Source: an uncultured virus (IMG/VR IMGVR_UViG_3300023176_002901)
Lineage: Duplodnaviria; Heunggongvirae; Uroviricota; Caudoviricetes; Crassvirales
IMG/VR virus record: IMGVR_UViG_3300023176_002901
Length of the DNA stretch: 64,000 nt
Reading direction: 5' to 3' (one strand)
The notes beneath the pieces were generated by a model. It had not been told where the DNA came from, did not search any database, and saw only the letters and a program-made list of their open reading frames with translations. A program made the position numbers and the translations under genes. Shown piece after piece: positions 3,965-25,063 of this stretch; position 1 is the stretch's first letter; every line of letters begins with the position of its first letter.

Positions 3965-4576
3965 ATGAAATATCCCCTTACCACGGCAGAAAAGCGCCTG
4001 AAGGAGAAGGTAGAGAAACGAAAAGCAGCAAAGACACGCCTTCCCCTAACCAAGAAAGAGCGCGTCTACAGACAGGCAGAATACAAAAACGACTTCATGA
4101 AGTACTGGCGCGTAGTACGCCGGTGGCTGATGGTTAAGCACAACCTCAACATAACGGATATCGACATGCTGCTGTTCCTCTTCTCCGAGGGATACTTCAC
4201 CGTTAAGAAGTTCGAGGAGTACCAGACCCTGTTCTCGTGGGACAAGAAACGCCTCAAGCGCCTTATCGACAACGGGTGGATACATATATGGCGCAACCAC
4301 GGCGCCGGAAAGGCACGCCTATACGAGATAACGCCGCACTGCCGCGCCGTCATACAGAACATGTACCGCAAGCTAAACGGTGAGTGTATATCCGAGGATA
4401 TGTACCGCAACCCCATCTTCAGAAACGAGGCCGGATACGCCGACAAGATGCACCGCAACTACATCCTAAAGCTCAACGAGTCTATTCGACAAGGACAACG
4501 TCGCGCTCGAGTATCACGCTATAAACTTCGCCTTCGAGAATCATCGAATGACCAGCAGAACGGTCATACTGAATGA
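3965..4576 (+). CDS. Putative winged-helix DNA-binding regulator
   Basis: 203 aa; MarR-like pattern (LNITDIDMLLFL...LKRLIDNGWI...ARLYEIT); the only clear + strand gene within the - strand block. Confidence 0.55.
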   Translation: MKYPLTTAEKRLKEKVEKRKAAKTRLPLTKKERVYRQAEYKNDFMKYWRVVRRWLMVKHNLNITDIDMLLFLFSEGYFTVKKFEEYQTLFSWDKKRLKRLIDNGWIHIWRNHGAGKARLYEITPHCRAVIQNMYRKLNGECISEDMYRNPIFRNEAGYADKMHRNYILKLNESIRQGQRRARVSRYKLRLRESSNDQQNGHTE

Positions 4577-4736: not shown

Positions 4737-4993
4737 CGTATCTCCCATAAAAAGTCCTCTACCCAGATGGGGGTTCTCTCTCCCATCCACGCGTTGAACG
4801 TATTAAACTCAAGGAACTCGGCGGCCTCTTCTTCGCCCATATCTCTAGCCATGATGGAGATGGCCTTACTGCGTGAGTACACAACGCGGAATGACACCGG
4901 GTCGATACCAATGATGGCGCCGTCTAGTCCGTCGGCGAACAGCAGGCCCTCGTCATCATGCCCGCCGTAGAACTCAACAATCAAGTCCTTCAT
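4733..4993 (-). CDS. Hypothetical acidic protein between groEL and groES
   Basis: 86 aa, 4-nt overlaps with both neighbours. Confidence 0.75.
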   Translation of the reverse strand: MKDLIVEFYGGHDDEGLLFADGLDGAIIGIDPVSFRVVYSRSKAISIMARDMGEEEAAEFLEFNTFNAWMGERTPIWVEDFLWEIR

Positions 4994-6594
4994 TTGTCCT
5001 CGTAGGTTCTAGCCAGCGTAACGATGGCGTTAGTACTCAGTATGGTCGTTGCCACACTCACGGCATTCTTCAGGGCGTTCTTAGTGACCTTCAGTGGGTC
5101 GATGACGCCCATCTTGTACATGTCTCCGTAGACGTTGTTCTTCACATCGTAGCCGTTGTTGTCGTCATCCGACACGTCGAACATAATCTCCGTAGCGTTG
5201 AGGCCGGCATTCTCGAGTATCTGCGTCAGCGGAGCCGATAGGGCATACGCCATTATGGAATACGCGATACGCTCCTCGCTGGAGAGCTCCGGGTTATGTG
5301 ACTGTATGTGGCAGGTGTCCGCCTCGCGCCATAGCGCCAGACCACCGCCGGGGAGTATCCCCTCCTCAAGAGCGGAGCGCACAGCACACACCGCGTCATC
5401 GACGCGGTCAAAAATCTCTTTCTGCTCGACGTCAGAGTTACCACCCACATATATGATACCGATACCTCCCGTCAGGCTAGCAATACGCTGCTTTATGAAG
5501 TCCCTATCACCGCGCTTGGTGGCAGCGTCGTGCGCTTCCCACAGCTCCTTCACTCGTGCGTTGATGTCGTCGCTCTGCCCTTCGTCGCGCACGATTACCG
5601 TGCTGTCCTTGCCGACGATGACCTTAGCGGCGTGGCCGAGGTCTTTCATCGTCACCAAACTTAGGTCATCGCCCATGCTCTCGCTTATGAACCGCCCGCC
5701 TACGCTCACAGCAATGTCACTCATCAGCTCGTGCTGCTTGTATCCGAACTGAGGGGGTGTGATGGTGCACATCTTAAGGCCGTTCTTCACAACGTTCGCC
5801 GCCAGCGTATTACCAACCTGCGTGCTACAGGGGCCTATGATGAGGAGCTTCTTACGGTCCGCCACAATAGGCTTCAGGACCGACTCCACCTGCAAGACGT
5901 TACTAATCTCGTGGTCTGTCAGTAGGATGTACACGTCCTCGAGGATACACTCATCCTTCTTCTGGTTGTTGACGAACAGCTTGTTGTCATAGCCGCGGTC
6001 AATCTTAATACCGTCCGTTACGTCGCAGTATGTGGCCTCGCTCATGCTCTTCTCCACCGTCACGAGCCCATTCTCTCCTACCTTATTGTAGGCCTCCGCT
6101 ATGATACCACCGATGACGGGGTCGTTATTGGCGGAGATGGCCGCCACATCCTTAATCTTACGTGCACCCACCCTACGCGAGCGCTTCTCAAGGGAGCCCA
6201 CCACGTCGTTGGCGATGCGCTGCACCTGCCGGATGACCTCCGTGCTGTTCACCTCGGGGGTGATGAGCGACATACCGCGTACAGCAATGGCCTCCGTCAG
6301 CACAATAGCCGTGGTGGTGCCGTCACCGGCGCTTGTCGCCGTCCTATCGGCGGCCTCCTTCATCATACGAACGGCTAGGTTCTCCACGGGGTCAATAAGG
6401 TCGATGCTCTTGGCAACAGTAACACCATCCTTAGTGACAGTAATCCCGTGGGTATGGTATTGGCTTTCTATCAGCACCGTCTTACCGCGAGGACCGAGGG
6501 TGCTCTTCACCGCCTTGGCGATTGTGGCGATGCCGTTGCCTAATCTGCGACGCGCATCGTCGTCGAACGTAAGGCTCTTTGGTGTGTAGTCCAT
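4990..6594 (-). CDS. groEL: Chaperonin GroEL
   Basis: TLGPRG, TKDGVTVAK, AGDGTTTA, EEGILPGGG and GVIDP motifs; no GGM tail. Confidence 0.97.
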   Translation of the reverse strand: MDYTPKSLTFDDDARRRLGNGIATIAKAVKSTLGPRGKTVLIESQYHTHGITVTKDGVTVAKSIDLIDPVENLAVRMMKEAADRTATSAGDGTTTAIVLTEAIAVRGMSLITPEVNSTEVIRQVQRIANDVVGSLEKRSRRVGARKIKDVAAISANNDPVIGGIIAEAYNKVGENGLVTVEKSMSEATYCDVTDGIKIDRGYDNKLFVNNQKKDECILEDVYILLTDHEISNVLQVESVLKPIVADRKKLLIIGPCSTQVGNTLAANVVKNGLKMCTITPPQFGYKQHELMSDIAVSVGGRFISESMGDDLSLVTMKDLGHAAKVIVGKDSTVIVRDEGQSDDINARVKELWEAHDAATKRGDRDFIKQRIASLTGGIGIIYVGGNSDVEQKEIFDRVDDAVCAVRSALEEGILPGGGLALWREADTCHIQSHNPELSSEERIAYSIMAYALSAPLTQILENAGLNATEIMFDVSDDDNNGYDVKNNVYGDMYKMGVIDPLKVTKNALKNAVSVATTILSTNAIVTLARTYEDK

Positions 6595-7219: not shown

Positions 7220-7372
7220 TTACTTCATGGAGCGCATAGCCATAGCCTCCATCATAGCCTCAGCAGCCTCCTTCTTCATCTGCGCCATCTTCTTGTGACG
7301 AAGAGCAGACTGAATACCCGTCTCTCCGGGATTAATAGGACTGGAGTCTTGAATCATCTTTACCGTTTTCAT
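7220..7372 (-). CDS. Small Met/Ala-rich hypothetical protein (50 aa)
   Basis: Hand-read; ATGA overlap with the upstream ORF, followed by a terminator. Confidence 0.65.
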   Translation of the reverse strand: MKTVKMIQDSSPINPGETGIQSALRHKKMAQMKKEAAEAMMEAMAMRSMK

Positions 7373-7512
7373 AACCAGAGAAAATTAATACTTAACAAAC
7401 CAACATGCAACTGAAGCTCACTGTAGTCCGTCTCCTCGTCAACACCATAGTAAGCAAAGCCTACCAAGAATCCATTGCGAACACGGTTCTGAACCTGAAT
7501 CATCCACTGCAT
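7369..7512 (-). CDS. Small hypothetical protein (47 aa)
   Basis: Hand-read; TATATTTG box at 7516-7523 directly upstream. Confidence 0.6.
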   Translation of the reverse strand: MQWMIQVQNRVRNGFLVGFAYYGVDEETDYSELQLHVGLLSINFLWL

Positions 7513-7967
7513 ACACAAATATACGAATATCAGATGAGTGTAGTGTTTGGGTTATATGCCAGTATACGCGCCGTGCCCCGCGCCGGAAAGCGATTTTTTT
7601 TTCGAGGGGGGGGTCGCGATTTCAAAATTTCCTTGCGGATTTTTGGCGAATCCGTGTTTAAACATGCATCGACAAGGAATTAGATGTTTAAACAAATAAA
7701 TCGAGCATCGGAAATGCGTGTTCAAACAAACAATAATAAACTGCGCACGGGGGGAGCCGTCCTCCCACCGATAAAGAGAAAGCCGTCTCACCTTAGACTC
7801 TTTTCAACCGACCCGAGGAAAGAGAGGTCGGTTAGCCCCTCCCCCGACCTACATCTCCCTTAATTTCCGACAAACTATACTTTTCTGCGTTTTGTAACTC
7901 GCTGATATTCAGTGAGTTTGAAAGTCAGTTCAGCGTTTCATACGCAAAACTTTTTTAATATGCAATA

Positions 7968-8561
7968 GTTGGAAACCGAAACCTTCGTGAGTCCTTTGCA
8001 ATGTCCAACCGACATAGCATGGTCAACGAGCCATGAGGTTGGGGCGGAGATAGGCAACGAGACACTATAGTCCGCAACGCTCTTTGAAATAGCCCGAGGG
8101 GAGATAGCCACGAGGGATGACTGCTGAAGCCGTGAGGAGTACAAGTACCGAACGGAGGCGAGTGGGAGGTGTTCCCTCCTATGAGCCAAGACAATGACCA
8201 CCGCAGATGAGCGCACCATAGAGTGCGATGGTGAGCAATGGACACGAAAAGACACGAGGGAGGCAGTTGTCGCGGATGGGGAAATAGCCGAGGGATAGCG
8301 GTCAGCGATGAGAGGCAAAATTGAAAGCCTCTGCGATGTAGCCTTACATGGTAGAGATACCATAGATGCGAGAGTAGAGCATGGGACACCATGGTACTTG
8401 ATGGTAGCACGGGGTGAGCAGAGACAAGTAGGTAGGTGCCCGAGTTAGAAAAACCGACATAAAGGTCACATGATTGAGGTGGCGGTGCAGTAGGGGTGAA
8501 CCTACCGCATTGTCATTGGGGCGCATGGTGGTCATGAGGGGTTCGTTTCCCCTCCGCCCCA
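7968..8561 (+). ncRNA. Candidate large structured ncRNA (~600 nt), family unassigned
   Basis: No convincing ORF; many hairpins, some with GNRA loops; long-range helix GACAATG(8190-96)/CATTGTC(8508-14); ends in a tRNA-like element. Confidence 0.65.
8518..8561 (+). ncRNA. tRNA-like element 1 (acceptor + T arm, no anticodon arm)
   Basis: GGGGCG/CGCCCC stacked on GAGGGG-TTCGTTT-CCCCTC; linker contains TGG. Confidence 0.65.
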
Positions 8562-8578
8562 CTAAAAAACCAAGAACC

Positions 8579-8791
8579 ATGAAATACATTCCTTCCACGG
8601 ATGACCAATGGATAAAGTTGGTCACCACGAGCCGAAAGTCCTTCGGCAGAGCCTCCACGAGAGGCGCGAACTACCACGCCAAAGAGCGTGGTTTGGTGGT
8701 TAAGAAAAACCGCATTTCGGATGCTATCCGAGAGGCAATAACCGCCGACTATGAGAACACCCGTTTAGTATATGTGTGTCACGCTAAATAA
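8579..8791 (+). CDS. Early hypothetical protein (70 aa)
   Basis: ATG after an A-rich leader directly behind the tRNA-like element. Confidence 0.7.
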   Translation: MKYIPSTDDQWIKLVTTSRKSFGRASTRGANYHAKERGLVVKKNRISDAIREAITADYENTRLVYVCHAK

Positions 8792-8799
8792 TAGAAACC

Positions 8800-8928
8800 A
8801 TGACTATTGAAGCATTAATTCGTGAAGAGTTGGAACATGACTACTACGCCATGGAAACCAACCCAAGGGTCGACAAAGGCATCCTCCGCTTAATGGAGTG
8901 CGTCATTGAAGACATTCAGGTTAACTGA
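8800..8928 (+). CDS. Early micro-protein (42 aa); stop codon lies inside the hammerhead core
   Basis: Hand-read MTIEALIREELEHDYY...IQVN*; A-rich leader. Confidence 0.6.
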   Translation: MTIEALIREELEHDYYAMETNPRVDKGILRLMECVIEDIQVN

Positions 8929-8968
8929 CGAGGGTTCAGTACCCGAAACGCCGTGAGGCGTCTTAACC
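8919..8968 (+). ncRNA. Type I hammerhead ribozyme 1
   Basis: GGTTAA-CTGACGA-GGGT(TCAGT)ACCC-GAAA-CGCC(GTGA)GGCG-TC^TTAACC; full consensus core; predicted cut after C8962. Confidence 0.93.
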
Positions 8969-8983
8969 AAAAACCTTAATCTA

Positions 8984-9622
8984 ATGATTAATGACTTGAA
9001 AGAAATTCGCTTGGTACGAAACCTCCGAGCCGAATACAATCAGCGAGTGCTAAAGCAGTACCGCACCGAGAATTCTCTCATCACCACTCAAGAGACCCTC
9101 CAAGGGGATGTTTTCCTCTCGCACGAACAACGAGTTGGTGAGCGCAGAACGAGCACTCATTCTTACGGCTTTGAGGCGGACAACACTCGCAAGATGCACC
9201 TCCGCAGAACCAAAAACGCCGAGTTGATAGAGTTTAAGTTGGTGTGTGATATCATCACCATTGACTACAACTTTAGTGAAGAGCCTCGTTTCGTTACTAC
9301 GGAAATGTCCGAAGAGACGGCTCAACTCGCACCTCGTATGAAGGTCATTTACGGCACGAAGGAGGCGAAAGCCCTCCGAGATATGGCTCGTATGCAATAC
9401 ACCCTCAAAGACCTCTACAAGGGCAAAGAAACCCAAGGAATTGATGCCCTTGGTGCAATCAAGCCGGGCATCATCATTGACTGCCTCTCGGAATTGGTTG
9501 AACGAGCAGATGCTGTCTGCGAGTGGGGCACGATATGGGATGCTAAAGATGTTGCATACAAACTTGAGGAAAAGGTTGACTTCCAATTCAAGACGCCGAC
9601 CTTGAATTTCAACGCCAAATAA
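8984..9622 (+). CDS. Early hypothetical protein flanked by the two hammerheads
   Basis: 212-aa ORF, no recognisable motif. Confidence 0.8.
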   Translation: MINDLKEIRLVRNLRAEYNQRVLKQYRTENSLITTQETLQGDVFLSHEQRVGERRTSTHSYGFEADNTRKMHLRRTKNAELIEFKLVCDIITIDYNFSEEPRFVTTEMSEETAQLAPRMKVIYGTKEAKALRDMARMQYTLKDLYKGKETQGIDALGAIKPGIIIDCLSELVERADAVCEWGTIWDAKDVAYKLEEKVDFQFKTPTLNFNAK

Positions 9623-9627
9623 GCAAA

Positions 9628-9680
9628 GGTTAACTGACGAGTGCTTTAGTAGCCGAAACCGCCTCCGGGCGGTCTTAACC
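9628..9680 (+). ncRNA. Type I hammerhead ribozyme 2
   Basis: GGTTAA-CTGACGA-G[T]GCT(TTAGT)AGCC-GAAA-CCGCC(TCCG)GGCGG-TC^TTAACC; predicted cut after C9674. Confidence 0.92.
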
Positions 9681-9695
9681 AAAAACTCTAATATC

Positions 9696-10634
9696 ATGAC
9701 AAAGACCGACATCTTTGAAAAAGTAAAGCAGACCCTCATTGAGGGCATTGAAAAGGACGGCTTGAATTGGTTCAAGCCATGGAAGGATTCACGAGGCGGT
9801 GGTTTGGACGATTGGCGTCCTATCAACCGCAAGACGGGTCAACCCTACAAGGGCATGAACATTTGGTTCTTGAGTTCAGCGATGCGTGACATGGGCTATG
9901 AGCACAACGAGTGGCTCACCTATAAAAACGCACAAGAGTTGGGCGGTAGTGTCCGCAAGGGCGAGTCCTCTACCGAGGTGTTCTTTTGGAACATTGGGTA
10001 TTGGAATCCAACTACCAAAAAAGCCTACAAAAGCATGGCTGATGCCCTCGCCAAGGGTGAGAGCAAGGAGGACATCAAAGAATTCTTCTCGCTGAAGGTT
10101 TGGAATGTGTTCAACATTGCTCAATGCGATGACATTGAGCCACGCAACCCAAGCCAACCCATTGAGCCCGAGGAGGAGAATATCTTCAGCCCTATCGAGG
10201 AGGCGGAGCGCATCATTGCCGAGTGGGACACAAAGCCTCGCATACAACACGGAGGCAACTCGGCTCACTATAGCCCGAGCATGGACTATGTGCAGATGCC
10301 CGAACCAAAAAACTTCGTGGACGGGGACTCTTATTATAAGACGCTCTTCCATGAGTTGGTGCATAGCACGGGACATGAGACGCGCCTCAAGCGCAAAGGC
10401 ATCGTGGAGTTTGATAAATTCGGCTCCGACCGCTATGCGATGGAGGAGTTGGTCGCAGAGAGCGGTTCTATGATGTTGACGGGTCTTGCGGGACTCAACC
10501 CGAAGGATTCCGATGACAACTCGGTTGCCTATGTCAAGAATTGGTCGAAGCGACTCAAGCAAGAGCCAAGCAAGGCGATTGTTGGAGCGCTGACTCAATC
10601 AGCCAAGGCTGTTGAGTTAATCATGGGCAAGTAA
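9696..10634 (+). CDS. ardC: ArdC-like antirestriction / ssDNA-binding protein with zincin-like domain
   Basis: W.KPW, P.N..TG.PY.G.N, WLTYKNAQELGG.VRKGE, VFN.AQ, HELVHSTG and YAMEELVAE motifs. Confidence 0.92.
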   Translation: MTKTDIFEKVKQTLIEGIEKDGLNWFKPWKDSRGGGLDDWRPINRKTGQPYKGMNIWFLSSAMRDMGYEHNEWLTYKNAQELGGSVRKGESSTEVFFWNIGYWNPTTKKAYKSMADALAKGESKEDIKEFFSLKVWNVFNIAQCDDIEPRNPSQPIEPEEENIFSPIEEAERIIAEWDTKPRIQHGGNSAHYSPSMDYVQMPEPKNFVDGDSYYKTLFHELVHSTGHETRLKRKGIVEFDKFGSDRYAMEELVAESGSMMLTGLAGLNPKDSDDNSVAYVKNWSKRLKQEPSKAIVGALTQSAKAVELIMGK

Positions 10635-10642
10635 GCCCGAAA

Positions 10643-10686
10643 GGATGGATGGTCGCAGAGGGGGTTCGACTCCCCCTCCATTCCCA
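10643..10686 (+). ncRNA. tRNA-like element 2 (acceptor + T arm, ends in CCA)
   Basis: GGATGG/CCATTC stacked on AGGGGG-TTCGACT-CCCCCT, then CCA; linker ATGGTC. Confidence 0.65.
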
Positions 10687-10737
10687 AACTTAATAACCAA
10701 ACTCACGAGTGCGAGAGGATAACACGGCACAACTACG

Positions 10738-10959
10738 ATGATGACTAAAAACCTCATCTCTACGGCTAAATGGGGAGGTATGTTCCTCGCCTACAACGCC
10801 CTCTTCTTCTTGGTGGGATACTTGTTTCTCGCCTTGTTCAACGGACTCGATATGTCCACTTGGTGTAATGAGGTAGTGAATCTACTGCATGTAGTTGCGC
10901 CTTTGTTAGGGTTCGCTGTTTTCATGGCGGATATGATTGACCAACCCAATAATAAATAA
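10738..10959 (+). CDS. Small membrane protein (two hydrophobic segments)
   Basis: 73-aa hydrophobic ORF. Confidence 0.7.
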   Translation: MMTKNLISTAKWGGMFLAYNALFFLVGYLFLALFNGLDMSTWCNEVVNLLHVVAPLLGFAVFMADMIDQPNNK

Positions 10960-10963
10960 GGCC

Positions 10964-11149
10964 ATGAAAGAAGATTTGTTAATGCAGATTTCCTCAATCC
11001 TCAGCCACACTCACGCTCATCGGCTACTGATGAAGTTGGGCGCAAAGGTGGGTCTCAATGATGATAGCCAAGAGGAGTTTGTCAATCGGCTTGAAGCGTT
11101 TGCCGAAGAAACAATGCTTGAACTGCTCGATGAGCAAGAAGAAGATTAA
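10964..11149 (+). CDS. Hypothetical protein
   Basis: ATG right after the previous stop. Confidence 0.65.
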   Translation: MKEDLLMQISSILSHTHAHRLLMKLGAKVGLNDDSQEEFVNRLEAFAEETMLELLDEQEED

Positions 11150-13354: not shown

Positions 13355-13554
13355 AAATTAAATTCAGTGGCGATAGCATCGCCATCTACACCTCGCTTAA
13401 CGGACACCAAACAAAAGTCCGCATCGACCATATGGTTCGAGATGAGCGTTGCCTTGGAGGACACAAGGTCTATGTCAAGACAATCGCCAAGGGGAGACCA
13501 AGTAAGAACCCCTTCCGTTATGTTCCTATTAATAGAATCAAGTTCTTGTCATGA
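13351..13554 (+). CDS. Hypothetical basic protein
   Basis: Coupled ORF. Confidence 0.65.
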   Translation: MKIKFSGDSIAIYTSLNGHQTKVRIDHMVRDERCLGGHKVYVKTIAKGRPSKNPFRYVPINRIKFLS

Positions 13555-13718
13555 TGAAGTTTGCTAAGGAGATGCTACTTGCAACTCTCGCTATGATGCT
13601 GATTGGCTCCGCCTCGGTGAGCATTGTCCTCTATCAAGAGGGCTCTGCCGATGCTATATGGGTAGCCATGGTATGCATGACCTCATTCTTTTTATTAATC
13701 ACTAAACTTAAATAAGCC

Positions 13719-14474
13719 ATGCCGAATTGGGTATACACCACAATCAAAACGGACGCCAAGAACGAAGCGTTCGTTAAGGAAGTCATGGGTAAGGGCGGAC
13801 TCTGCGAGTACTACCTCCCCATGCCCGATGAAATCCGTTTCACCAACTCCCCTAATCGTATTATAAGCGAGGAGGAGTACGCCATCAAGGAAGCGCTCGG
13901 TCAAACGAGAGAAGAGAATAACTACACCACATCGTACTACCAAACGCAGGAGATGGTCGATGAACTGAAGGCCAAGTATAGCGCAGAGAATTGGTACGAT
14001 TGGGCGCACATGTATTGGGGTACGAAGTGGGGCGATAGCCGTATGGAGTACGACATAGACGGAGACACCATGTATATTAGATACCAAAGCGCATGGTCAC
14101 CCGTCACTTGGGATATTGTTGAGACCTTCATGACTCATCTTGTCAATGCTGAGTACACATGGGAGGAGGAGCAAGGCTTCGGCGCTCAGGTCATATATAT
14201 AAACGGAGACTTTGATAGCATGTTGGAGTGGGACATGCCCGTGTTTAAGTACACGGCGTGGTTAGACACCGAGGTGCAGTCAAGTACCAACAGCAGTAAG
14301 TTCGTACAAGAAATGTACGGCTACTTGGAGGAGGACTACGAGAACAACATGGGAGTCTACGAGAAGGGGTGGCACTGCTATTCCGATTGGTATACCGAGA
14401 GCAGTCTCGTTACGGATGAGGAGATGATTAAGAAACTTGAATCCATGAAGACCGATGAGCAGATTGAATTCTAA
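13719..14474 (+). CDS. DUF1281/YubB-like ferredoxin-fold protein
   Basis: MPNW start, WYDW...WGTKW and SAWSP motifs. Confidence 0.75.
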   Translation: MPNWVYTTIKTDAKNEAFVKEVMGKGGLCEYYLPMPDEIRFTNSPNRIISEEEYAIKEALGQTREENNYTTSYYQTQEMVDELKAKYSAENWYDWAHMYWGTKWGDSRMEYDIDGDTMYIRYQSAWSPVTWDIVETFMTHLVNAEYTWEEEQGFGAQVIYINGDFDSMLEWDMPVFKYTAWLDTEVQSSTNSSKFVQEMYGYLEEDYENNMGVYEKGWHCYSDWYTESSLVTDEEMIKKLESMKTDEQIEF

Positions 14475-14641
14475 TCCCAAAGAGATGGAGCAGTTCATGC
14501 GAATTGCTATGGCTCGGCTAAGAGGCGAATATAGATTCGCCCCTCAGCGCCGAGCAGTTGCCGCCCGAATGTATACTAAATGGTTAAATAGAAAATGATG
14601 TTTCGTATACCGAGCATCAGTTCAAACCTTAAAACGAAGAT

Positions 14642-14881
14642 ATGAAAACACCAATGCAAGAGTTGATTGAGCAACTCCAAAACAAATACGAACAACTACA
14701 ACAGAGCGGAGACCTTGTAGCCGCTATGTATGTACAAGATGCAATTGAACTTGCACACTCTATGCTTGAAAAAGAGAAAGAGGCAATATGTGAGTTTGCT
14801 GCAAACTATGCTACCGGATGCGATAGTGGAACAATAATCACATCAGACCAAGCATTTAACGAAACCTTTAATGCCAAATAG
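14642..14881 (+). CDS. Hypothetical protein (MKTPMQELI...LEKEKE...FNETF) inside a direct-repeat-flanked cassette
   Basis: 79 aa; 16-bp repeat at 14586-14601 and 14876-14891. Confidence 0.75.
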   Translation: MKTPMQELIEQLQNKYEQLQQSGDLVAAMYVQDAIELAHSMLEKEKEAICEFAANYATGCDSGTIITSDQAFNETFNAK

Positions 14882-15042
14882 AAAATGATGTATAAGTTGA
14901 CCTTTGTCCCCACTCTGCGCAACACCCTCGCCGTTAAGACTTGCGTGTTGGTAAAGAGTGCCGGCTCCATTGAGGAGTTGTCGAGAATGCAGTACGAAGC
15001 CCCCAATCCCTTGGAGTGGATGCTTGAATCTATTGAGGAGTT

Positions 15043-15372
15043 ATGAAGAAGGTAGAAGAGATGTATCCCGAAACGACACAAGCGTTTAAGGAGAAGATGG
15101 AGGAGATGTATGAGACCTTCTGCAAGAAGATGTGGGACTACGGCAGTAATAACATCGCCCTTGGGCGTGACCTATCGGAAGACCACAACAAGAAGATGTC
15201 CCTGATGGGCATATGGTTCCGCAGTAATGACAAGATGTCACGCATCGAGAACATCCTTGAGCGAGGGGACTTGGCGAGCACCGCCAATGAACCACTTGAG
15301 GATAGTTACCTTGACTTGGCCAACTATTCAATCATCGCAACCATCGTCCACAAAAATTTGTGGGGTAAATAA
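15043..15372 (+). CDS. DUF1599 / nucleotide-modification-associated domain protein
   Basis: KK.WDYG..N, R..DK..R and EPLEDSYLDLANY motifs. Confidence 0.75.
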   Translation: MKKVEEMYPETTQAFKEKMEEMYETFCKKMWDYGSNNIALGRDLSEDHNKKMSLMGIWFRSNDKMSRIENILERGDLASTANEPLEDSYLDLANYSIIATIVHKNLWGK

Positions 15373-15528
15373 ATTGTTCGTAAATTAGCAACGCAATCAA
15401 ATCATAAACTATGAATCAACTACCTGACAATCAGGAAGATAGAGTCACTATCGTATCGAGCGACTCGCTCTCCACCATGGTGGACTTGTTCAAATCTTTT
15501 GGCGAATACTTTCAATTTGATAAAGGAG

Positions 15529-15912
15529 ATGTACATGAAGAGTGAGATATGGAAGCAGTCCATAGATGATGGGCTCTCCGCCCATATAGATTACGGCGAG
15601 ACCGAGGCCACCATTCTTTATGGTGTGCGCCTCGAGAAGGCCGGCAACAACTACGATTTTTTTATTGCATACGAGGGAGACTTCTATAGGAAGATGCCCC
15701 CCAACTATGTAGACACCATCCTTGAGTTAGGGTGGCGCAAGGGGCTGTGTCAACTCCTTGTTGACCGATGTCAAAGAAACATCGATTCAAGGCAGTCATC
15801 TTTAGAAAAGCAACTAAATGCAGAGGCTCCCGACCAAAAAGAAATCGACCGACTCGGTGTAGTCATTAGTAACCTTGAAGCCAAGCGTGATAAATACGCG
15901 GTTCAACTTTAA
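15529..15912 (+). CDS. Hypothetical protein
   Basis: ORF with coiled-coil-like C-terminus; start uncertain. Confidence 0.7.
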   Translation: MYMKSEIWKQSIDDGLSAHIDYGETEATILYGVRLEKAGNNYDFFIAYEGDFYRKMPPNYVDTILELGWRKGLCQLLVDRCQRNIDSRQSSLEKQLNAEAPDQKEIDRLGVVISNLEAKRDKYAVQL

Positions 15913-15926
15913 TCAATCAATCAATT

Positions 15927-16505
15927 ATGTCAAATTCCACTTTCAAAACCTTATCCGAGGTAAGTATCAAGGGTAAGACCGAACGCAAGGGTAATCTTGA
16001 TTACCTCTCTTGGGCAACAGCATGGTCTATGCTCAAGCACCACTATCCCAATGCTCAACGCATTGTATATGAAGACCAAGCCACCGGCTTGAACTTCTTT
16101 ACCGATGGCCGTAGTGCATATGTCAAGGTGGGTATTGTCGTTGATGAGTTAGAGCACATCGACTACTTGCCCATTATGGACTACCGCAACAACGCCATTC
16201 CCATTGACAAGGTAACATCCTTCGATGTGAATAAAACCATTCAGCGGTCAACGGCTAAGGCTATTGCGCTCCATGGTCTCGGCCTATCCTTGTGGATGGG
16301 TGAGGACATCGCCGATGTGGCTCCCGTAGTGCAGAGCGCACCCGAGCAACTACCACTAAAGGTTGGCGATGCCAATTGGGAGAAAGTCTCTAAATATATA
16401 GAGGCTAATAAGGGGCTTGGCTCCGATGCCATCATCAAGAACCTTGAGGTTAAGTATAAGATTACTGCCCAAGTGAAGACTGCCATCAATAAGGCTTGCG
16501 CGTGA
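15927..16505 (+). CDS. Sak/DUF1071-type (Rad52-like) single-strand annealing protein
   Basis: YLSWATAW, LPIMDYRN, VNKTIQR..AKAIALHGLGL motifs. Confidence 0.85.
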   Translation: MSNSTFKTLSEVSIKGKTERKGNLDYLSWATAWSMLKHHYPNAQRIVYEDQATGLNFFTDGRSAYVKVGIVVDELEHIDYLPIMDYRNNAIPIDKVTSFDVNKTIQRSTAKAIALHGLGLSLWMGEDIADVAPVVQSAPEQLPLKVGDANWEKVSKYIEANKGLGSDAIIKNLEVKYKITAQVKTAINKACA

Positions 16506-17242
16506 TGCAGAACATCATCGAGAAACTCAACGATGATGCGAATTACTACGGAGAATTGGGGAGGCAGTTCCTCTCCAACTCCGACATTCGCTCACTACTA
16601 AAAGACCCGCGGTCTTTTAAGCAACCACAGCCCGAGAGCAAACCACTCATTGAGGGGCGCTACTTCCACACCCAACTCCTTGAGCCTGAGAAAGTTAAGG
16701 ACATTGAGGTGGTGGATGCATCTACTCGCAACACCAACATCTACAAGGATGCTGTTGCGAAATCCAAATCGGACATGCTATTATTAAGAAGCGAGGCTGA
16801 TGAGATTGACGCCATCGTGTCTGCGATGAAGAGCAACTTCCGGTTTTACGAATTAATCTACGGAGACAACAACGCCTATGAGGTTCCCAATGTGCAAGAA
16901 ATAAAGGGCGCAATGTGGAAGGGCAAGGCTGATGTTGTCAATCACTCCGAGGGTCTTGTGATTGACCTCAAGACCACACAAAATATCGATGACTTCCGTT
17001 GGTCGGCACGCAAGAATAACTACGATAGCCAAGCGTATATATATCAGATGCTCTTTGGTTACCCGGTGTTGTTCCTTGTTGCCGAGAAGGGAACCGGTCG
17101 CCTTGGAATCTATAATGTCAGCGAGGACTTTCTTCGTGGCGGGGAGGAAAAGGTCGAGCAGGCTCTTGATGTTTACCATAAGTTCTATGGCGAGCATGCT
17201 ACTGAAGACATCGATAATTATTTCTTTTCCGAAACCCTTTAA
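16505..17242 (+). CDS. PD-(D/E)XK exonuclease, RecE/ExoVIII-like
   Basis: LSNS, G..FH..LLEP, KGKAD, IDLKTT, Y..QAYIY motifs. Confidence 0.85.
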   Translation: MQNIIEKLNDDANYYGELGRQFLSNSDIRSLLKDPRSFKQPQPESKPLIEGRYFHTQLLEPEKVKDIEVVDASTRNTNIYKDAVAKSKSDMLLLRSEADEIDAIVSAMKSNFRFYELIYGDNNAYEVPNVQEIKGAMWKGKADVVNHSEGLVIDLKTTQNIDDFRWSARKNNYDSQAYIYQMLFGYPVLFLVAEKGTGRLGIYNVSEDFLRGGEEKVEQALDVYHKFYGEHATEDIDNYFFSETL

Positions 17243-17252
17243 TCCCTGAACT

Positions 17253-17534
17253 ATGGCTCAAGAAAAAATCTTCGCCGACGGCTTCATCTTGAAGCGCAGA
17301 GAAAAGGCTCCCGACTTTGTATTGGGTAGTCTCTCTATCAAACTTGAGGAGGCACTCCCCTTCTTGAACAGCAACCAAAAGAATGGTTGGGTTAATCTTA
17401 ATCTTATGATATCCAACACGGGTAAATACTATGTGGAATTGGATACATTTGTCCCTAAGAAACAAGAGGACAATGCTCAACCTGCGGCGCCGACACCAAG
17501 TGTTGCCGTAGACACGGAGGACTTACCATTCTAA
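17253..17534 (+). CDS. Putative ssDNA-binding protein
   Basis: Acidic EDLPF tail; follows the annealase/exonuclease pair. Confidence 0.65.
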   Translation: MAQEKIFADGFILKRREKAPDFVLGSLSIKLEEALPFLNSNQKNGWVNLNLMISNTGKYYVELDTFVPKKQEDNAQPAAPTPSVAVDTEDLPF

Positions 17535-17536
17535 TT

Positions 17537-17561
17537 AGGGGAGGGCGAAAGCCCTCCCTTT
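17537..17561 (+). terminator. Hairpin / terminator
   Basis: GGGAGGGC-GAAA-GCCCTCCC-TTT. Confidence 0.6.
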
Positions 17562-17576
17562 ATAATCTTTAATCTA

Positions 17577-20006
17577 ATGAGCGAGAGTTTAGTAACCATT
17601 TTTAGGAACATCAAGGAGACCGAGCAGCCCTTCTATAGAGATGTGGACTTTATCCTTAATAGAATCAAAGAGGGCGCATCCAAAGAACTCGTAAAGAGAA
17701 TCCGCTTGGAGAAAGAGAAGAGCGTCATCAATGAACTGAAGCAACAACTGCCTGCCGTCTGCTTTAGTGGCACATTCAACAAGAGGCAAGACAGCGCTAT
17801 CCAAGAGCACAGCGGATTCCTCTGCCTTGACTTTGACGGCTACAAAAAACAAAAGGAATTACTCGAGGCCAAGGAGCGCTTGGCCAAGGACAAGTATGTA
17901 TACTCGGTGTTCATTAGCCCGTCCGGCAAGGGACTCAAGGCTCTCGTGCGCATCCCGGCGGAGGTAGACAACCACAAGAACTACTTCAATGCCCTTGAGA
18001 ATTATTTCTCTGATGAGCACTTCGACAAGACAAGCAAGAACATTAGTCGTGTGTGCTACGAATCCTACGACCCACTCATCTATATCAATCACAACTCAAG
18101 CGTATGGACAAGCCTTGAAGACCAACGCTACAATGAGATTGATAAAAAGAAAGACCGACCCACCATTCCAATCACGGATGAGAACAAGATAGTTGACATC
18201 CTAATCCGTTGGTGGGAGAAGAAATATCCCATGGTGGAGGGGCAGCGCAATCACAATGTATATATCCTTGCCGCCGCATTCAATGACTTTGGCGTGAGCA
18301 AGTCTCTCGCTACCTATGTGCTGTCTCACTATCAAACCTCTGACTTTGGGGAGGGTGAGATTAAGAGAACGATTGACTCAGCGTATTCAGCCACCGAGAA
18401 GTTCGGTACCCGATACTATGAGGACGAGGATAGGGTAACCCAAATCAAGAACAAGTTGAGAATGGGTGTGCCAAAAAAAGAAATCCGTCATCAACTTGAA
18501 GAGTCCAATGTTGATGGCGATACTATTGACTTGGTTATCTCTCGCATCGAAGAGGAGCAGGCCGGTCAAAAATTTTGGACAAAGAGCGACAAGGGTGTGG
18601 TTAAGATTGTGCCTATTCAGTTCAAGATGTTCCTCGAGGACAACGGTTTTTATAAATACAATCCGGAGGGCAGTAAGAACTATGTGTTCGTAAGGGTAAC
18701 CAATAACCTCATCGACCACACGAGCGAGAACGAAATTAAAGACTTTGTTCTTGACTATCTGCTTGACCTTCAGGATGCATTGGTGTACAATTACTTCGCT
18801 GACTTCACCCGATACTTCAAGGAAGATTTCCTTACGCTATTGGCGTCTATCGATGTGTACTTCATCGAGGACACCAAGGATGCGGCCTACCTATATTATA
18901 AGAACTGCGCCGTAAAGATTACGCACGACCGGGTGGAGACTATCGACTACCTTGACCTCGGTGGATATGTGTGGAAGGACCACGTAATTGACCGGGTCTT
19001 TGAACCCGTCGATGAACCGACTACTGATTTTGAGAAGTTCATCTGCAACATCTGCAACAACGACACCAACCGGATGAAGAGCATGGAGTCTACCATTGGG
19101 TTCCTGCTTCACGCCTACAAGGATTTGTCGTTCTGCCCCGCCGTCATCTTAAACGATGAGGTCATCAGCGATAACCCTGAGGGTGGTACGGGTAAGGGCT
19201 TGCTCATGAATGGCATATCACAATTAAAGAAGTTGGTAGTCATCGACGGCAAGTCGTTCACCTTCGAGCGCTCGTTCGCATATCAGTTGGTATCGGCAGA
19301 CACGCAGATACTATGTTTTGATGACGTTAGAAAGCACTTTGACTTTGAAAGGCTGTTCTCCGTGGTGACGGAGGGATTAACGCTTGAGAAGAAGAATAAG
19401 GACGCCATTAAGATTCCGTTCAGCAAGTCCCCCAAGATTACTATCACTACCAACTACGCCATCAAGGGCGCAGGCAACTCGTTTGCCCGGCGCAAGTGGG
19501 AGTTGGAGTTGCATCAGTATTATAACAAGCACTACACCCCGCTCGATGAGTTCGGTAAGTTGTTGTTCGGCGATTGGGACGATGATGAGTGGTTGCAGTT
19601 CGACAACTACATGATTAACTGCCTTCGTGCTTACCTACGGACGGGATTGGTGCAGAGTTCGTTTGTTAACCTGAAGATTCGGCAGTTGTCAGCAGAGACA
19701 TCACACGAGTTTATTGAGTGGTGCGGTCTCATCGACGGGAACATAGCATCGGAGGTGATGCTTGCTTTGATTGATGGGCGCAAGGTTTACAAGCATGAGT
19801 TGTACATGGACTTTATCCAAGAGAACCCGGACTTCGCACCCAAGGCTAAGATGACTATCTCCCGAACGAGGTTCAATAAGTGGCTCACATCTTACTGCGT
19901 ATTTAAATCAGAGGTTACGCCCGAAGAGGGGCGCGACTCGCAGGGCAGGTGGATGCGCATGAAGAGCAAGCATGAGTTAGAGAAGAATGGAAAATTTGAA
20001 TTCTAA
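17577..20006 (+). CDS. Primase-helicase (BT4734/VirE-N-like AEP domain, PriCT, P-loop helicase)
   Basis: K..LP...FSG.F, CLDFD, FISPSGKGLK, EGQRN, GGTGKG Walker A, FDD Walker B, ITTN. Confidence 0.85.
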   Translation: MSESLVTIFRNIKETEQPFYRDVDFILNRIKEGASKELVKRIRLEKEKSVINELKQQLPAVCFSGTFNKRQDSAIQEHSGFLCLDFDGYKKQKELLEAKERLAKDKYVYSVFISPSGKGLKALVRIPAEVDNHKNYFNALENYFSDEHFDKTSKNISRVCYESYDPLIYINHNSSVWTSLEDQRYNEIDKKKDRPTIPITDENKIVDILIRWWEKKYPMVEGQRNHNVYILAAAFNDFGVSKSLATYVLSHYQTSDFGEGEIKRTIDSAYSATEKFGTRYYEDEDRVTQIKNKLRMGVPKKEIRHQLEESNVDGDTIDLVISRIEEEQAGQKFWTKSDKGVVKIVPIQFKMFLEDNGFYKYNPEGSKNYVFVRVTNNLIDHTSENEIKDFVLDYLLDLQDALVYNYFADFTRYFKEDFLTLLASIDVYFIEDTKDAAYLYYKNCAVKITHDRVETIDYLDLGGYVWKDHVIDRVFEPVDEPTTDFEKFICNICNNDTNRMKSMESTIGFLLHAYKDLSFCPAVILNDEVISDNPEGGTGKGLLMNGISQLKKLVVIDGKSFTFERSFAYQLVSADTQILCFDDVRKHFDFERLFSVVTEGLTLEKKNKDAIKIPFSKSPKITITTNYAIKGAGNSFARRKWELELHQYYNKHYTPLDEFGKLLFGDWDDDEWLQFDNYMINCLRAYLRTGLVQSSFVNLKIRQLSAETSHEFIEWCGLIDGNIASEVMLALIDGRKVYKHELYMDFIQENPDFAPKAKMTISRTRFNKWLTSYCVFKSEVTPEEGRDSQGRWMRMKSKHELEKNGKFEF

Positions 20007-24877: not shown

Positions 24878-24950
24878 GCGCCTTTAGCTCAGTGGTTAGA
24901 GCAGTGGACTCATAATCCATTGGTCGTAGGTTCAAATCCTTCAAGGCGCA
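24878..24950 (+). tRNA. tRNA with CAT anticodon, probably tRNA-Ile2 (lysidine) rather than Met
   Basis: Cloverleaf, loop CTCATAA, C4:G69 and C5:G68 pairs, discriminator A; one T-stem mismatch; CCA not encoded. Confidence 0.85.
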
Positions 24951-24954
24951 CACC

Positions 24955-25027
24955 GCCCCCATAGCTTAATGGATAGAGCAACGCACTTCTAATGCGTAGG
25001 TTGCTGGTTCGACTCCAGCTGGGGGTA
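24955..25027 (+). tRNA. tRNA-Arg(TCT)
   Basis: Cloverleaf with ACGCA-CTTCTAA-TGCGT anticodon arm; CCA not encoded. Confidence 0.92.
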
Positions 25028-25063
25028 CAAAGTGTAAAATAAAAACACCACAAAGTGTAAAGT

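What the first reader, a model, noticed from the sequence alone, without database searches (positions are those of the whole stretch)
7968..10686. RNA-processing module at the head of the early operon: large ncRNA, tRNA-like element, two hammerheads, second tRNA-like element
Seen: in 2.7 kb, the start and three of the four following gene boundaries carry an RNA structure (ncRNA + tRNA-like end at 8561, hammerheads at 8919 and 9628, tRNA-like element at 10643), each followed by an A/C-rich leader and ATG. Known: hammerheads self-cleave; tRNA top halves are RNase P/RNase Z substrates; T7 cuts its early mRNA using host RNase III. Inference: this phage cuts its first transcript into a free ncRNA and short mRNAs (including ardC) using ribozymes and tRNA mimics. 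I do not know of this combination being described as one system.
Basis: partly seen in the sequence, partly recalled or inferred. Interest (0 to 1): 0.92.

Follow-up and report, generated by a model that had tools for sequence, protein, structure and literature searches.

The report
Ribozyme and mini-tRNA punctuated phage operon
The first 2.7 kb of this marine phage's rightward operon holds a conserved 550-base non-coding RNA, two genuine hammerhead ribozymes and two stripped-down tRNA look-alikes at the gene borders, which most likely mark where one long message is cut into separate pieces, though no cut has yet been observed.

Summary
A covariance model built only from hammerheads of other phages finds exactly two hits in the 64-kb window: 8919-8968 and 9628-9680. 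A second model, built from anticodon-less tRNA-like elements (TLS) of other phages, ranks 10643-10687 and 8518-8564 first. Both families covary strongly and lie only on the coding strand.

Across 109 non-identical ardC loci, the two borders of ardC carry a hammerhead, a TLS or nothing. Close relatives swap one element for the other in the same slot, and one relative adds a pistol ribozyme.

The 550-nt leader is non-coding and conserved in four phages. It has compensatory hairpins.

Cleavage itself is not shown. Metatranscriptome contigs cover the region but also bridge the predicted cut sites.

Hammerheads flanking anti-restriction genes were described in 2011 (PMC3088659). I found no paper describing the tRNA mimics in the same role, or the leader RNA ending in one. 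This scan has noted similar mixed punctuation on other phage DNA.

The parts
7958..7971 (+). Conserved motif ATATGCAATAGTTG at the head of the non-coding region; possible promoter or transcript start (inferred)
   Evidence: Invariant in window, L196, L047 and nearly so in L192. No sigma-70-type site was found here, and the function was not tested.
7968..8517 (+). About 550-nt conserved non-coding leader, candidate structured ncRNA. Hairpins at 8018-8035, 8164-8179 and 8212-8227 have compensatory changes in relatives.
   Evidence: Homologues: L196 (nhmmer E 8.9e-30), L047 and L192. Non-coding. Fold z-scores -2.74 (window) and -2.53 (L196). RNAalifold: 31 of 72 predicted pairs keep pairing after changes on both sides. 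No Rfam family at E<=10.
8518..8564 (+). tRNA-like element 1 (TLS1). It has an acceptor stem (8518-8523 with 8556-8561), a short linker with GG, a T-arm with the atypical loop UUCGUUU, and the tail ACUA.
   Evidence: R2 hit at 35.2 bits, E 3.6e-7. L196 keeps it with a covarying acceptor (GGGUGUC/GACACCC) and the same ACUAA tail. L047 and L192 lack it.
8579..8791 (+). orf70, first gene after the leader, unknown function
   Evidence: ORF. No Pfam or PHROG match. A homologous ORF follows the L196 leader (read by eye).
8800..8928 (+). orf42; its stop codon UGA (8926-8928) is U4-G5-A6 of the hammerhead core
   Evidence: L196 has the same arrangement.
8919..8968 (+). Type I hammerhead 1; predicted self-cleavage between C8962 and U8963
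   Evidence: R1 hit at 73.7 bits, E 1.4e-21. Core and three stems read. Family covariation.
8984..9622 (+). orf212, unknown function, flanked by the two hammerheads
   Evidence: ORF. No Pfam or PHROG match. The only relative found is the same phage.
9628..9680 (+). Type I hammerhead 2 (stem II has one bulged U); predicted cleavage between C9674 and U9675
   Evidence: R1 hit at 53.6 bits, E 6.5e-15. In the 93% ArdC relative L190, differences fall only at N7 and in loops II and III.
9696..10634 (+). ardC-like anti-restriction gene (ArdC N-terminal domain plus zincin-like metallopeptidase domain)
   Evidence: Pfam PF08401 (E 1.7e-26) and PF18818 (E 2.8e-32).
10643..10687 (+). tRNA-like element 2 (TLS2). 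A 12-bp acceptor/T-arm stack, linker UGGUCGCA, canonical T-loop UUCGACU and tail CCAA.
   Evidence: R2 hit at 43.1 bits, E 2.1e-9. The same slot directly after ardC holds a TLS in 17 of 101 scorable loci.
10738..10959 (+). orf73, next gene after TLS2 (predicted membrane-like small protein, not analysed)
   Evidence: ORF. No Pfam or PHROG match.

Best explanation
This is a punctuated polycistronic operon of a Flavobacteriia-type podovirus. One transcript runs rightward from about 7970 and is cut at RNA-encoded marks of two interchangeable kinds.

(1) The two type I hammerheads cut themselves at 8962/8963 and 9674/9675. The upstream piece ends in the folded ribozyme with a 2',3'-cyclic phosphate. 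The downstream mRNA starts with a 5'-OH and a 21-nt A/C-rich leader.

(2) The two anticodon-less tRNA mimics keep only what tRNA end-processing enzymes read: an 11-13-bp acceptor/T-arm stack, a T-loop and a D-loop-like GG linker. Host RNase P would cut at their 5' side (8517/8518 and 10642/10643). RNase Z or exonucleases may cut after the tail.

Predicted products are a leader RNA of about 550 nt (7970-8517), an orf70+orf42 mRNA, an orf212 mRNA, a monocistronic ardC mRNA (9675-10642) and the downstream message.

Shown here: the elements exist, belong to conserved covarying families, sit only on the coding strand at gene borders just upstream of start codons, and replace one another in relatives.

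Inferred: that cutting occurs, which enzymes cut the tRNA mimics, and that the purpose is to give each gene its own short unstructured 5' leader and its own stability. That purpose would suit hosts whose mRNA leaders lack Shine-Dalgarno sequences.
For: Hammerheads.
- R1, built without window sequence, finds only the two sites in the window.
- All 26 hits in 855,510 bases of 100 sources are on the ardC strand; 6 of these are the model's own seeds. Five more hits in 12 further sources are also on that strand.
- 99.7% of cells are paired, and 13 of 15 pairs change on both sides. The two invariant pairs are G10.1-C11.1 and A15.1-U16.1. No shuffle of 500 reaches the observed pairing, compensatory-cell count or covariation score.
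- Rfam independently calls one family member (L264, Hammerhead_1, 34.4 bits against a 34-bit cut-off).

tRNA-like elements.
- R2 hits in the window.
- All 21 hits at E<=0.001 in the same 100 sources are on the + strand. They give 16 distinct rows, 5 of them seeds.
- 97.9% of cells are paired, and 10 of 12 pairs change on both sides. Covariation score is 0.926 against 0.253 in shuffles, 0/500 reaching it.
- A strict descriptor finds 25 distinct elements on the + strand and 1 on the - strand. Each of 20 shuffles gives 0-2 hits. 24 of 25 linkers contain GG.
- None is an ARAGORN tRNA.

Interchangeability.
- ardC border tally.
- L193 and L194 read HH-ardC-HH, while L196, L190 and the window read HH-ardC-TLS.
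- L255 has five TLS in series, two of them flanking ardC.
- L029 has a pistol ribozyme (67.5 bits) upstream of ardC and three TLS downstream.
- In 80 loci chosen only for a hammerhead, R2 finds 5 TLS. All 5 are on the hammerhead's strand and each is followed by a short leader and ATG.

Other support.
- No terminator-like site splits the + strand in the gene gaps.
- RNase P cleaves acceptor/T-stem-loop hairpins and some phage RNAs and mRNAs (PMC11143913, passages read).
- tRNA-like t-elements direct RNase P/Z cuts at plant mitochondrial mRNA ends (PMC1920247, abstract and passages read).
- Hammerheads flanking ardA cleave in vitro and in E. coli (PMC3088659, passages read).
Against: - No RNA end was mapped.
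- In run X1, RNA-library contigs bridge TLS1 and HH1 (8317-9553) and bridge HH2 and TLS2 (9547-10727). Uncut precursor or contaminating DNA is therefore present.
- Rfam's own hammerhead models miss both window copies, and the L196 copy.
- Stem I is only 6 bp, and I identified no loop-loop tertiary contact, so cutting could be slow.
- The TLS1 T-loop (UUCGUUU) lacks the usual A58, and TLS1 is absent from L047 and L192.
- 81 of 94 upstream and 78 of 101 downstream ardC borders carry neither element, so punctuation is dispensable.
- The alignments used for covariation were fitted to the models.
Confidence: 0.6

Rival explanations
1. The hammerheads cut, but the tRNA mimics are not cut sites. They stay on the RNA as stable 5' or 3' caps that shield neighbouring messages from exonucleases or insulate translation. 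Alternatively they are released only to act as decoys for host factors that read the tRNA acceptor end: CCA-adding enzyme, or acceptor-end-modifying or acceptor-end-cleaving defence toxins.
For: The elements keep the acceptor end and elbow but no anticodon arm, and most have a pseudo-CCA tail of the form N-C-N-A. They lie near anti-restriction genes. Several phages carry 3-5 copies.
Against: They occupy the same slots as self-cleaving ribozymes in relatives, which is most simply explained by a shared cutting role. Nothing here shows binding to any host factor.
Confidence: 0.2
2. The 550-nt stretch is not a released ncRNA. It is either a long structured 5' untranslated leader of orf70, or a DNA-level feature of the leading genome end (origin, packaging or entry region) that is merely transcribed through.
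For: L047 and L192 keep the region but have no TLS between it and the first gene. A further conserved non-coding block lies just upstream at about 7245-7670. An RNA-library contig in X2 starts near 7557, upstream of the proposed start. Only four homologues exist, so covariation is thin.
Against: Hairpins at 8018-8035, 8164-8179 and 8212-8227 keep pairing through changes on both sides in relatives. Folding is more stable than in shuffles for both the window and L196. The window and L196 end the region with a covarying TLS followed by ACUAA.
Confidence: 0.35
3. TLS1 with its A-rich tail is a preQ1-I-type riboswitch controlling orf70.
For: Rfam PreQ1 match at 8532-8579, 29.2 bits, E 0.0036. GGUUC (8540-8544) could pair with GAACC (8574-8578) just before the AUG (read).
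Against: The score is below the 39-bit cut-off. The homologous position in L196 gives no PreQ1 match at E<=10. The match ignores the covarying acceptor stem that encloses the hairpin. CUAAAA-type tails follow many TLS.
Confidence: 0.03
4. The tRNA-like elements are decayed tRNA genes or attachment-site remnants with no RNA function.
For: Phages carry tRNA genes (two here, 24878-25028) and integrate at tRNA 3' halves (general knowledge).
Against: The design is constant: no anticodon arm and a GG linker. Strand bias is 25:1. The stems covary. Phages carry multiple copies. The elements sit just upstream of start codons in many unrelated phages.
Confidence: 0.03

Closest known systems
Clustered hammerhead ribozymes flanking genes in prophages (Perreault et al. 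2011, PMC3088659; passages read)
   Same: Several hammerheads flank single genes or short gene blocks, including an anti-restriction gene (ardA in A. tumefaciens). The authors proposed that long phage transcripts are processed into gene-length mRNAs, and showed cleavage in vitro and in E. coli.
   Different: Here the ribozymes are type I with a 6-bp open stem I that Rfam does not score. They share the operon and the very same slots with tRNA mimics, and with a pistol ribozyme in a relative. The flanked gene is ardC. I did not see their Dataset S1, so members of this subclass may be listed there.
t-elements of plant mitochondria (Forner et al. 2007, PMC1920247; abstract and passages read)
   Same: tRNA-like folds containing the GGTTCRANYCC T-arm motif lie beside mRNA ends and are thought to direct RNase P and RNase Z cuts. 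The excised t-element accumulates.
   Different: Those are organellar and derive from tRNA genes. The phage elements are a compact design of about 42-47 nt without an anticodon arm. They recur in series and are interchangeable with ribozymes. No ends are mapped here.
MALAT1 / MEN-beta with mascRNA (Rfam RF01684; biology recalled from my own knowledge)
   Same: A long non-coding RNA whose 3' end is made by RNase P cutting at a downstream tRNA-like element. The window has the layout: 550-nt leader, then TLS1. The L196 TLS gives its best weak Rfam match to this family (20.5 bits, E 0.54).
   Different: That system is eukaryotic and nuclear. The match is far below the 42.5-bit cut-off, so this is not a member. 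No triple-helix end protection was looked for.
tRNA punctuation of animal mitochondrial transcripts (model recalled; only mitochondrial papers appeared in the listing)
   Same: A polycistronic RNA is resolved by excision of tRNA-shaped spacers.
   Different: Those spacers are functional tRNAs. The elements here cannot decode.
RNase III processing of the phage T7 early transcript (recalled from my own knowledge)
   Same: The early polycistron is cut between genes, and the anti-restriction gene becomes its own message.
   Different: T7 uses long hairpins and host RNase III. Here the marks are ribozymes and tRNA mimics.
Theta (HDV-like) ribozymes next to phage tRNAs (Kienbeck et al. 2024, PMC10879173; abstract read)
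   Same: Small self-cleaving ribozymes and tRNA-shaped RNAs work side by side in phage transcripts.
   Different: Those ribozymes trim real, often suppressor, tRNAs. Here ribozyme and tRNA mimic are alternatives at mRNA borders.

Membership tests
Hammerhead ribozyme, type I | Catalytic core C3-U4-G5-A6-N7-G8-A9, G12-A13-A14, and a cleavable H17 after U16.1 | tested here: met
   Both copies read CUGACGA ... GAA A ... GUC followed by the cut. These columns are invariant in 10 family members.
Hammerhead ribozyme, type I | Three helices around the core, supported by covariation, with conserved G10.1-C11.1 and A15.1-U16.1 | tested here: met
   13 of 15 pairs change on both sides, and the two invariant pairs are exactly these.
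Hammerhead ribozyme, type I | Open stem I (5' and 3' ends in stem I) | tested here: met
   GGUUAA pairs with UUAACC on either side of the core, and stems II and III are closed by loops.
Hammerhead ribozyme, type I | Reaches the Rfam Hammerhead_1 (RF00163) gathering score | tested here: not met
   No hammerhead match for the window at gathering threshold or at E<=10. Family member L264 reaches 34.4 against 34 bits. This is a database score, not a structural feature.
Hammerhead ribozyme, type I | Self-cleavage | not testable with these tools
   Needs in vitro transcription or end mapping.
tRNA-like processing element (t-element / mascRNA kind) | Acceptor stem stacked on a T-arm (11-13 bp) with a 7-nt T-loop UUCRANY closed by G-C | tested here: met
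   TLS2 has UUCGACU and a 12-bp stack. Family covariation. The TLS1 loop UUCGUUU departs at position 58.
tRNA-like processing element (t-element / mascRNA kind) | D-loop-like GG that could dock on the T-loop | tested here: met
   24 of 25 distinct elements have GG in the linker. Longer versions form a small hairpin with GG in its loop. Docking itself was not tested.
tRNA-like processing element (t-element / mascRNA kind) | Cut by RNase P and/or RNase Z; ends coincide with mRNA ends | not testable with these tools
   Only contigs of RNA libraries were available.
Canonical tRNA | Anticodon arm and full cloverleaf | tested here: not met
   Only 10-12 nt lie between the acceptor 5' strand and the T-arm. 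Not called by ARAGORN or Rfam tRNA.
PreQ1-I riboswitch (RF00522) | Gathering score and conservation in homologues | tested here: not met
   29.2 against 39 bits. No match in L196.
Described large ncRNAs in Rfam 15 (GOLLD, ROOL, OLE and others) | Match to the family model | tested here: not met
   No large-RNA family matches window 7600-11000 or L196 3400-5600 at E<=10.

The most novel reading that the evidence does not exclude
The 550-nt leader plus TLS1 is a bacterial-virus counterpart of MALAT1-mascRNA. It would be the first RNA made from the operon, released by RNase P as a stable, ornate non-coding RNA with repeated AACGAG-type hairpin loops. It would act as a decoy or sponge for a host RNA-binding defence or nuclease. 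The excised mini-tRNAs, with their pseudo-CCA ends, would themselves titrate enzymes or toxins that act on tRNA acceptor ends. The punctuation marks would then be anti-defence products as well as cut sites.
Probability: 0.1. Interest if true: 0.9.

Novelty: new variant of a known kind. Interest (0 to 1): 0.66.

Why it matters
The biological purpose of most bacterial and phage self-cleaving ribozymes is still open (review PMC6765202, passages read). Here three chemically unrelated devices fill the same gene borders in related phages: hammerhead, pistol, and a tRNA mimic that would need a host enzyme. The simplest reading is that the shared selected function is the cut itself. This makes the processing hypothesis directly testable, by swapping elements and mapping ends.

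It also defines a compact, widespread tRNA-mimic class that standard tRNA and Rfam searches miss. It adds a new 550-nt phage RNA whose end may be made as the MALAT1 end is. These elements could serve as small, enzyme-free or RNase P-dependent insulators for synthetic operons.

Tried and rejected
- Rfam gave no hammerhead, large-RNA or tRNA match in the region at gathering threshold or at E<=10. The PreQ1-like and tmRNA T-arm matches are sub-threshold and were rejected.
- The phage collection has no DNA match to 7900-10750. The nearest held virus record, G001, does not cover the region.
- N4-like identity was considered because of the 3796-aa ORF. It is not supported: no PHROG match. The terminase points instead to Flavobacterium, Cellulophaga and Tenacibaculum podoviruses.
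- The closest named relative, MW202828.1 (TerL 74%), has no ardC, no R1 hit and no convincing TLS. No cultured phage with these elements was found. The ArdC tblastn search reached only relatives at or below 39% identity.
- Seeding searches for more leader-RNA homologues with exact patterns gave only chance hits plus the known contigs.
- The - strand ORFs across the leader (141 and 151 aa) come from its purine-rich composition. They show only a weak local match to L047.
- MAFFT alignments of the tRNA-like elements were out of register. A gapless five-sequence seed was used instead.
- Read laying: contigs cannot show ends. In all four runs the leader part has the highest word depth, but the tool warns that depth cannot rank parts. 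An X2 contig ending at 9678 is not at the cut site.
- The promoter and terminator scan was no better than shuffles.
- Other gaps of the operon (10.9-24.3 kb) show no further elements.
Full report
CONTEXT. The window is most of the genome of an uncultured phage.
- Genes on the - strand at 25-64 kb include a portal, a large terminase and virion proteins.
- The terminase is 74% identical to that of MW202828.1. It is 46.5% identical to that of Flavobacterium elemo phages; Cellulophaga, Tenacibaculum and Maribacter phages also match, all below 60%. The host is therefore probably a member of the Flavobacteriia. This is an inference.
- A GroEL gene (4990-6594, - strand) diverges from a + strand block running from about 7970 to 25 kb. 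That block holds ardC, recombination genes, a primase and a helicase, and ends in tRNA-Met and tRNA-Arg.
- I considered an N4-like identity because of the 3796-aa ORF, but it has no PHROG match. I do not claim it.
- 'Early' is inferred from gene content.

OBSERVATION: HAMMERHEADS. Read directly, 8919-8968 and 9628-9680 are complete type I hammerheads.
- The layout is GGUUAA, CUGACGA, a closed stem II, GAA, a closed stem III that starts A and ends U, then C17. UUAACC then pairs back to GGUUAA.
- A loose core pattern alone is not significant: 3 matches against 1.6 expected. Single-sequence energies are ordinary.
- Rfam reports neither copy at its gathering score or at E<=10.
- I therefore built model R1 from six hammerheads found next to ardC in other phages, with no window sequence. 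R1 gives exactly two hits in the 64-kb window on both strands, at E 1.4e-21 and 6.5e-15.
- Across 100 sources (855,510 bases) R1 gives 26 hits, all on the ardC strand; six are its own seeds. Twelve further sources give five more hits, again all on the + strand.
- On the resulting alignment 99.7% of cells pair and 13 of 15 pairs change on both sides. The only invariant pairs are G10.1-C11.1 and A15.1-U16.1. No shuffle of 500 reaches the observed pairing, compensatory-cell count or covariation score. The alignment is fitted to the model, which favours pairing.
- Rfam does call one member of the same family (L264, 34.4 against 34 bits).

OBSERVATION: tRNA-LIKE ELEMENTS (TLS). 8518-8564 and 10643-10687 each have four parts:
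- an acceptor-type stem stacked on a T-arm, 12 bp in all;
- a 7-nt T-loop;
- a 10-12-nt linker containing UGG where a D-arm would be, with no anticodon arm;
- a tail of the form N-C-N-A.

A descriptor written after seeing them found the same design repeatedly in ardC loci of other phages.
- With a strict T-loop it finds 25 distinct elements on the ardC strand and 1 on the other strand. Each of 20 shuffles gives 0-2 hits. 24 of 25 linkers contain GG.
- Longer versions fold the linker into a small hairpin with GG in its loop.
- Model R2, built from five elements of three other phages, ranks the two window elements first, at E 2.1e-9 and 3.6e-7. Third is part of the real tRNA-Arg at E 0.05.
- Over the 100 sources R2 gives 21 hits at E<=0.001, all on the + strand. 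These are 16 distinct rows, five of them seeds.
- 97.9% of cells pair and 10 of 12 pairs change on both sides. The covariation score is 0.926 against 0.253 in shuffles.
- ARAGORN calls none of them.
- TLS1 is the weaker of the two. Its T-loop is UUCGUUU. Among the four leader homologues it is conserved only in L196, there with a covarying acceptor and the same ACUAA tail.

OBSERVATION: THE LEADER. 7968-8517 is non-coding.
- Stops occur in all + frames.
- Only 1 of 8 indels against L196 is a multiple of three.
- Mismatches are spread 94/87/84 over the three phases.

Homologues exist in only three other contigs: L196 (E 8.9e-30), L047 and L192. Pattern-seeded scans of viral and bacterial collections added none.
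- Conserved single-stranded blocks alternate with hairpins whose stems differ but still pair. Examples are 8018-8035, 8164-8179 and 8212-8227.
- RNAalifold finds 31 of 72 predicted pairs with a compensatory change. With four sequences this is suggestive only.
- The window and L196 versions fold better than shuffles, with z of -2.74 and -2.53.
- No Rfam family matches.
- The motif ATATGCAATAGTTG at 7958-7971 is shared by all four homologues (L192 differs at one base) and may mark the start. That is not shown.

WHAT LINKS THEM. Among 109 non-identical ardC loci:
- The upstream border could be scored in 94. It holds a hammerhead in 12, a TLS in 1 and nothing in 81.
- The downstream border could be scored in 101. 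It holds a TLS in 17, a hammerhead in 6 and nothing in 78.
- Model R2 later added L043 to the downstream TLS cases. It also found a TLS just after ardC in L044, whose border could not be scored.
- 36 loci have at least one element somewhere in the locus.

Relatives with ArdC 63-65% identical to the window's differ only in which element they use:
- L193 and L194 read hammerhead-ardC-hammerhead.
- L196, L190 and the window read hammerhead-ardC-TLS.
- L047 has only the upstream hammerhead.
- L192 has neither beside ardC.

More distant phages show further variants:
- L056 flanks ardC with hammerheads and carries four in all.
- L255 flanks ardC with TLS and carries five in series.
- L257 has a hammerhead upstream and a TLS downstream.
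- L029 has a pistol ribozyme (67.5 bits) about 140 bases upstream of ardC and three TLS downstream.

In a sample chosen without reference to ardC, the result is the same. R2 finds five TLS in them. Each is on the hammerhead's strand, none is an ARAGORN tRNA, and each is followed by a short A/C-rich leader and ATG.

Every hammerhead the descriptor scans listed is followed by an ATG within about 10-30 bases of stem I. For the tRNA-like elements the next ATG lies 1-78 bases on. The hammerhead core also supplies the stop codon of orf42 (8926-8928); the same holds in L196.

MECHANISM. The best reading is a punctuated polycistron.
- Hammerheads cut themselves.
- The TLS present exactly the acceptor/T-arm/elbow surface that RNase P needs. 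RNase P cleaves hairpins made of acceptor stem, T-stem and T-loop, and also cuts phage M3 and C4 RNAs and some mRNAs (PMC11143913, passages).
- Plant mitochondrial t-elements are the closest working analogue (PMC1920247).
- The common outcome would be a fresh 5' end a few bases ahead of each start codon, and independent stability for each piece. The link to leaders without Shine-Dalgarno sequences in this host group is my inference.

That cutting happens is not shown. The four RNA libraries holding this phage are kept as contigs. They cover the region, but in X1 they bridge all four sites, and in X2 one contig begins near 7557, upstream of the proposed start.

RIVALS. Each is scored in its own section:
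- TLS as protective caps or decoys rather than cut sites.
- The leader as a plain 5' UTR or a DNA-level feature.
- A preQ1-like riboswitch. This is rejected: the match is sub-threshold and absent in L196.
- tRNA gene debris. This is rejected on strand bias, covariation and copy pattern.

COMPARISON AND NOVELTY.
- Multiple hammerheads flanking genes, including ardA, and the processing idea were published in 2011 (PMC3088659). Their function is still called open in a 2019 review (PMC6765202).
- My ten library searches found no paper describing anticodon-less tRNA mimics as phage operon punctuation, their exchange with ribozymes, or this leader RNA.
- A 2023 catalogue mentions tRNA-like candidates that overlap ARAGORN calls (PMC10690425, passages). 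I did not see its supplement.
- Earlier notes of this scan report the same mixed punctuation on other phage DNA. These are leads, not evidence, and one of them was later marked as partly fallen.
- I file the module as a new variant of a known kind. The hammerheads alone are ordinary new members. The TLS class and the leader RNA are the new parts.

Noticed in passing
window 10699-10731: A 33-base stretch between TLS2 and the next ATG recurs, with 2 differences, in other contigs of RNA libraries X1 and X2, flanked by unrelated sequence and again just upstream of an ATG. This suggests a conserved leader or promoter element shared with another phage. It occurs once in the window.
   Followed up: partly
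window about 7245-7670: A second conserved non-coding block lies upstream of the leader. It is 70% identical to L047 and 69% to L192. tblastx hits in all frames indicate nucleotide-level rather than protein-level conservation.
   Followed up: partly
L270 (MW202828.1) 13476-18908: The closest named relative has no hammerhead or TLS. Eight of the intergenic gaps of its + strand operon that I printed instead hold the perfect hairpin GTGTCGTTAACGACAC followed by an A/C-rich leader. This is a third kind of gene-border mark (RNA cut site, promoter or operator), and its role is unresolved.
   Followed up: no
L255 2105-4407: Five tRNA-like elements at intervals of about 400-1000 bases. Each is followed by a leader starting CGAAAAA or (A)CUAAAA and then an ATG, and two of them flank ardC. 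This is the purest 'tRNA-mimic punctuation' seen.
   Followed up: partly
L029 5791-5857: Pistol ribozyme (Rfam RF02679, 67.5 bits) in the same operon as three tRNA-like elements, upstream of ardC with a small ORF between them.
   Followed up: partly
L336 1201-2877: Five hammerheads of the GGUUAA-stem subclass within 1.7 kb of a viral contig.
   Followed up: no
window 8926-8928; L196 about 4459-4465: The UGA inside the hammerhead core CUGANGA serves as the stop codon of the upstream small ORF in both phages.
   Followed up: yes
window 25064-36454 (-): A 3796-aa ORF with no PHROG match at 1e-5. MW202828.1 has an 11.6-kb counterpart with an uninformative annotation.
   Followed up: no
L032 5831-5865: Rfam DUF805b RNA motif (51.2 bits) in an ardC-bearing viral contig.
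   Followed up: no
window 4990-6594 (-): Phage-encoded GroEL-type chaperonin (Pfam Cpn60_TCP1, E 2.1e-64). MW202828.1 has GroEL plus GroES at the same place.
   Followed up: no
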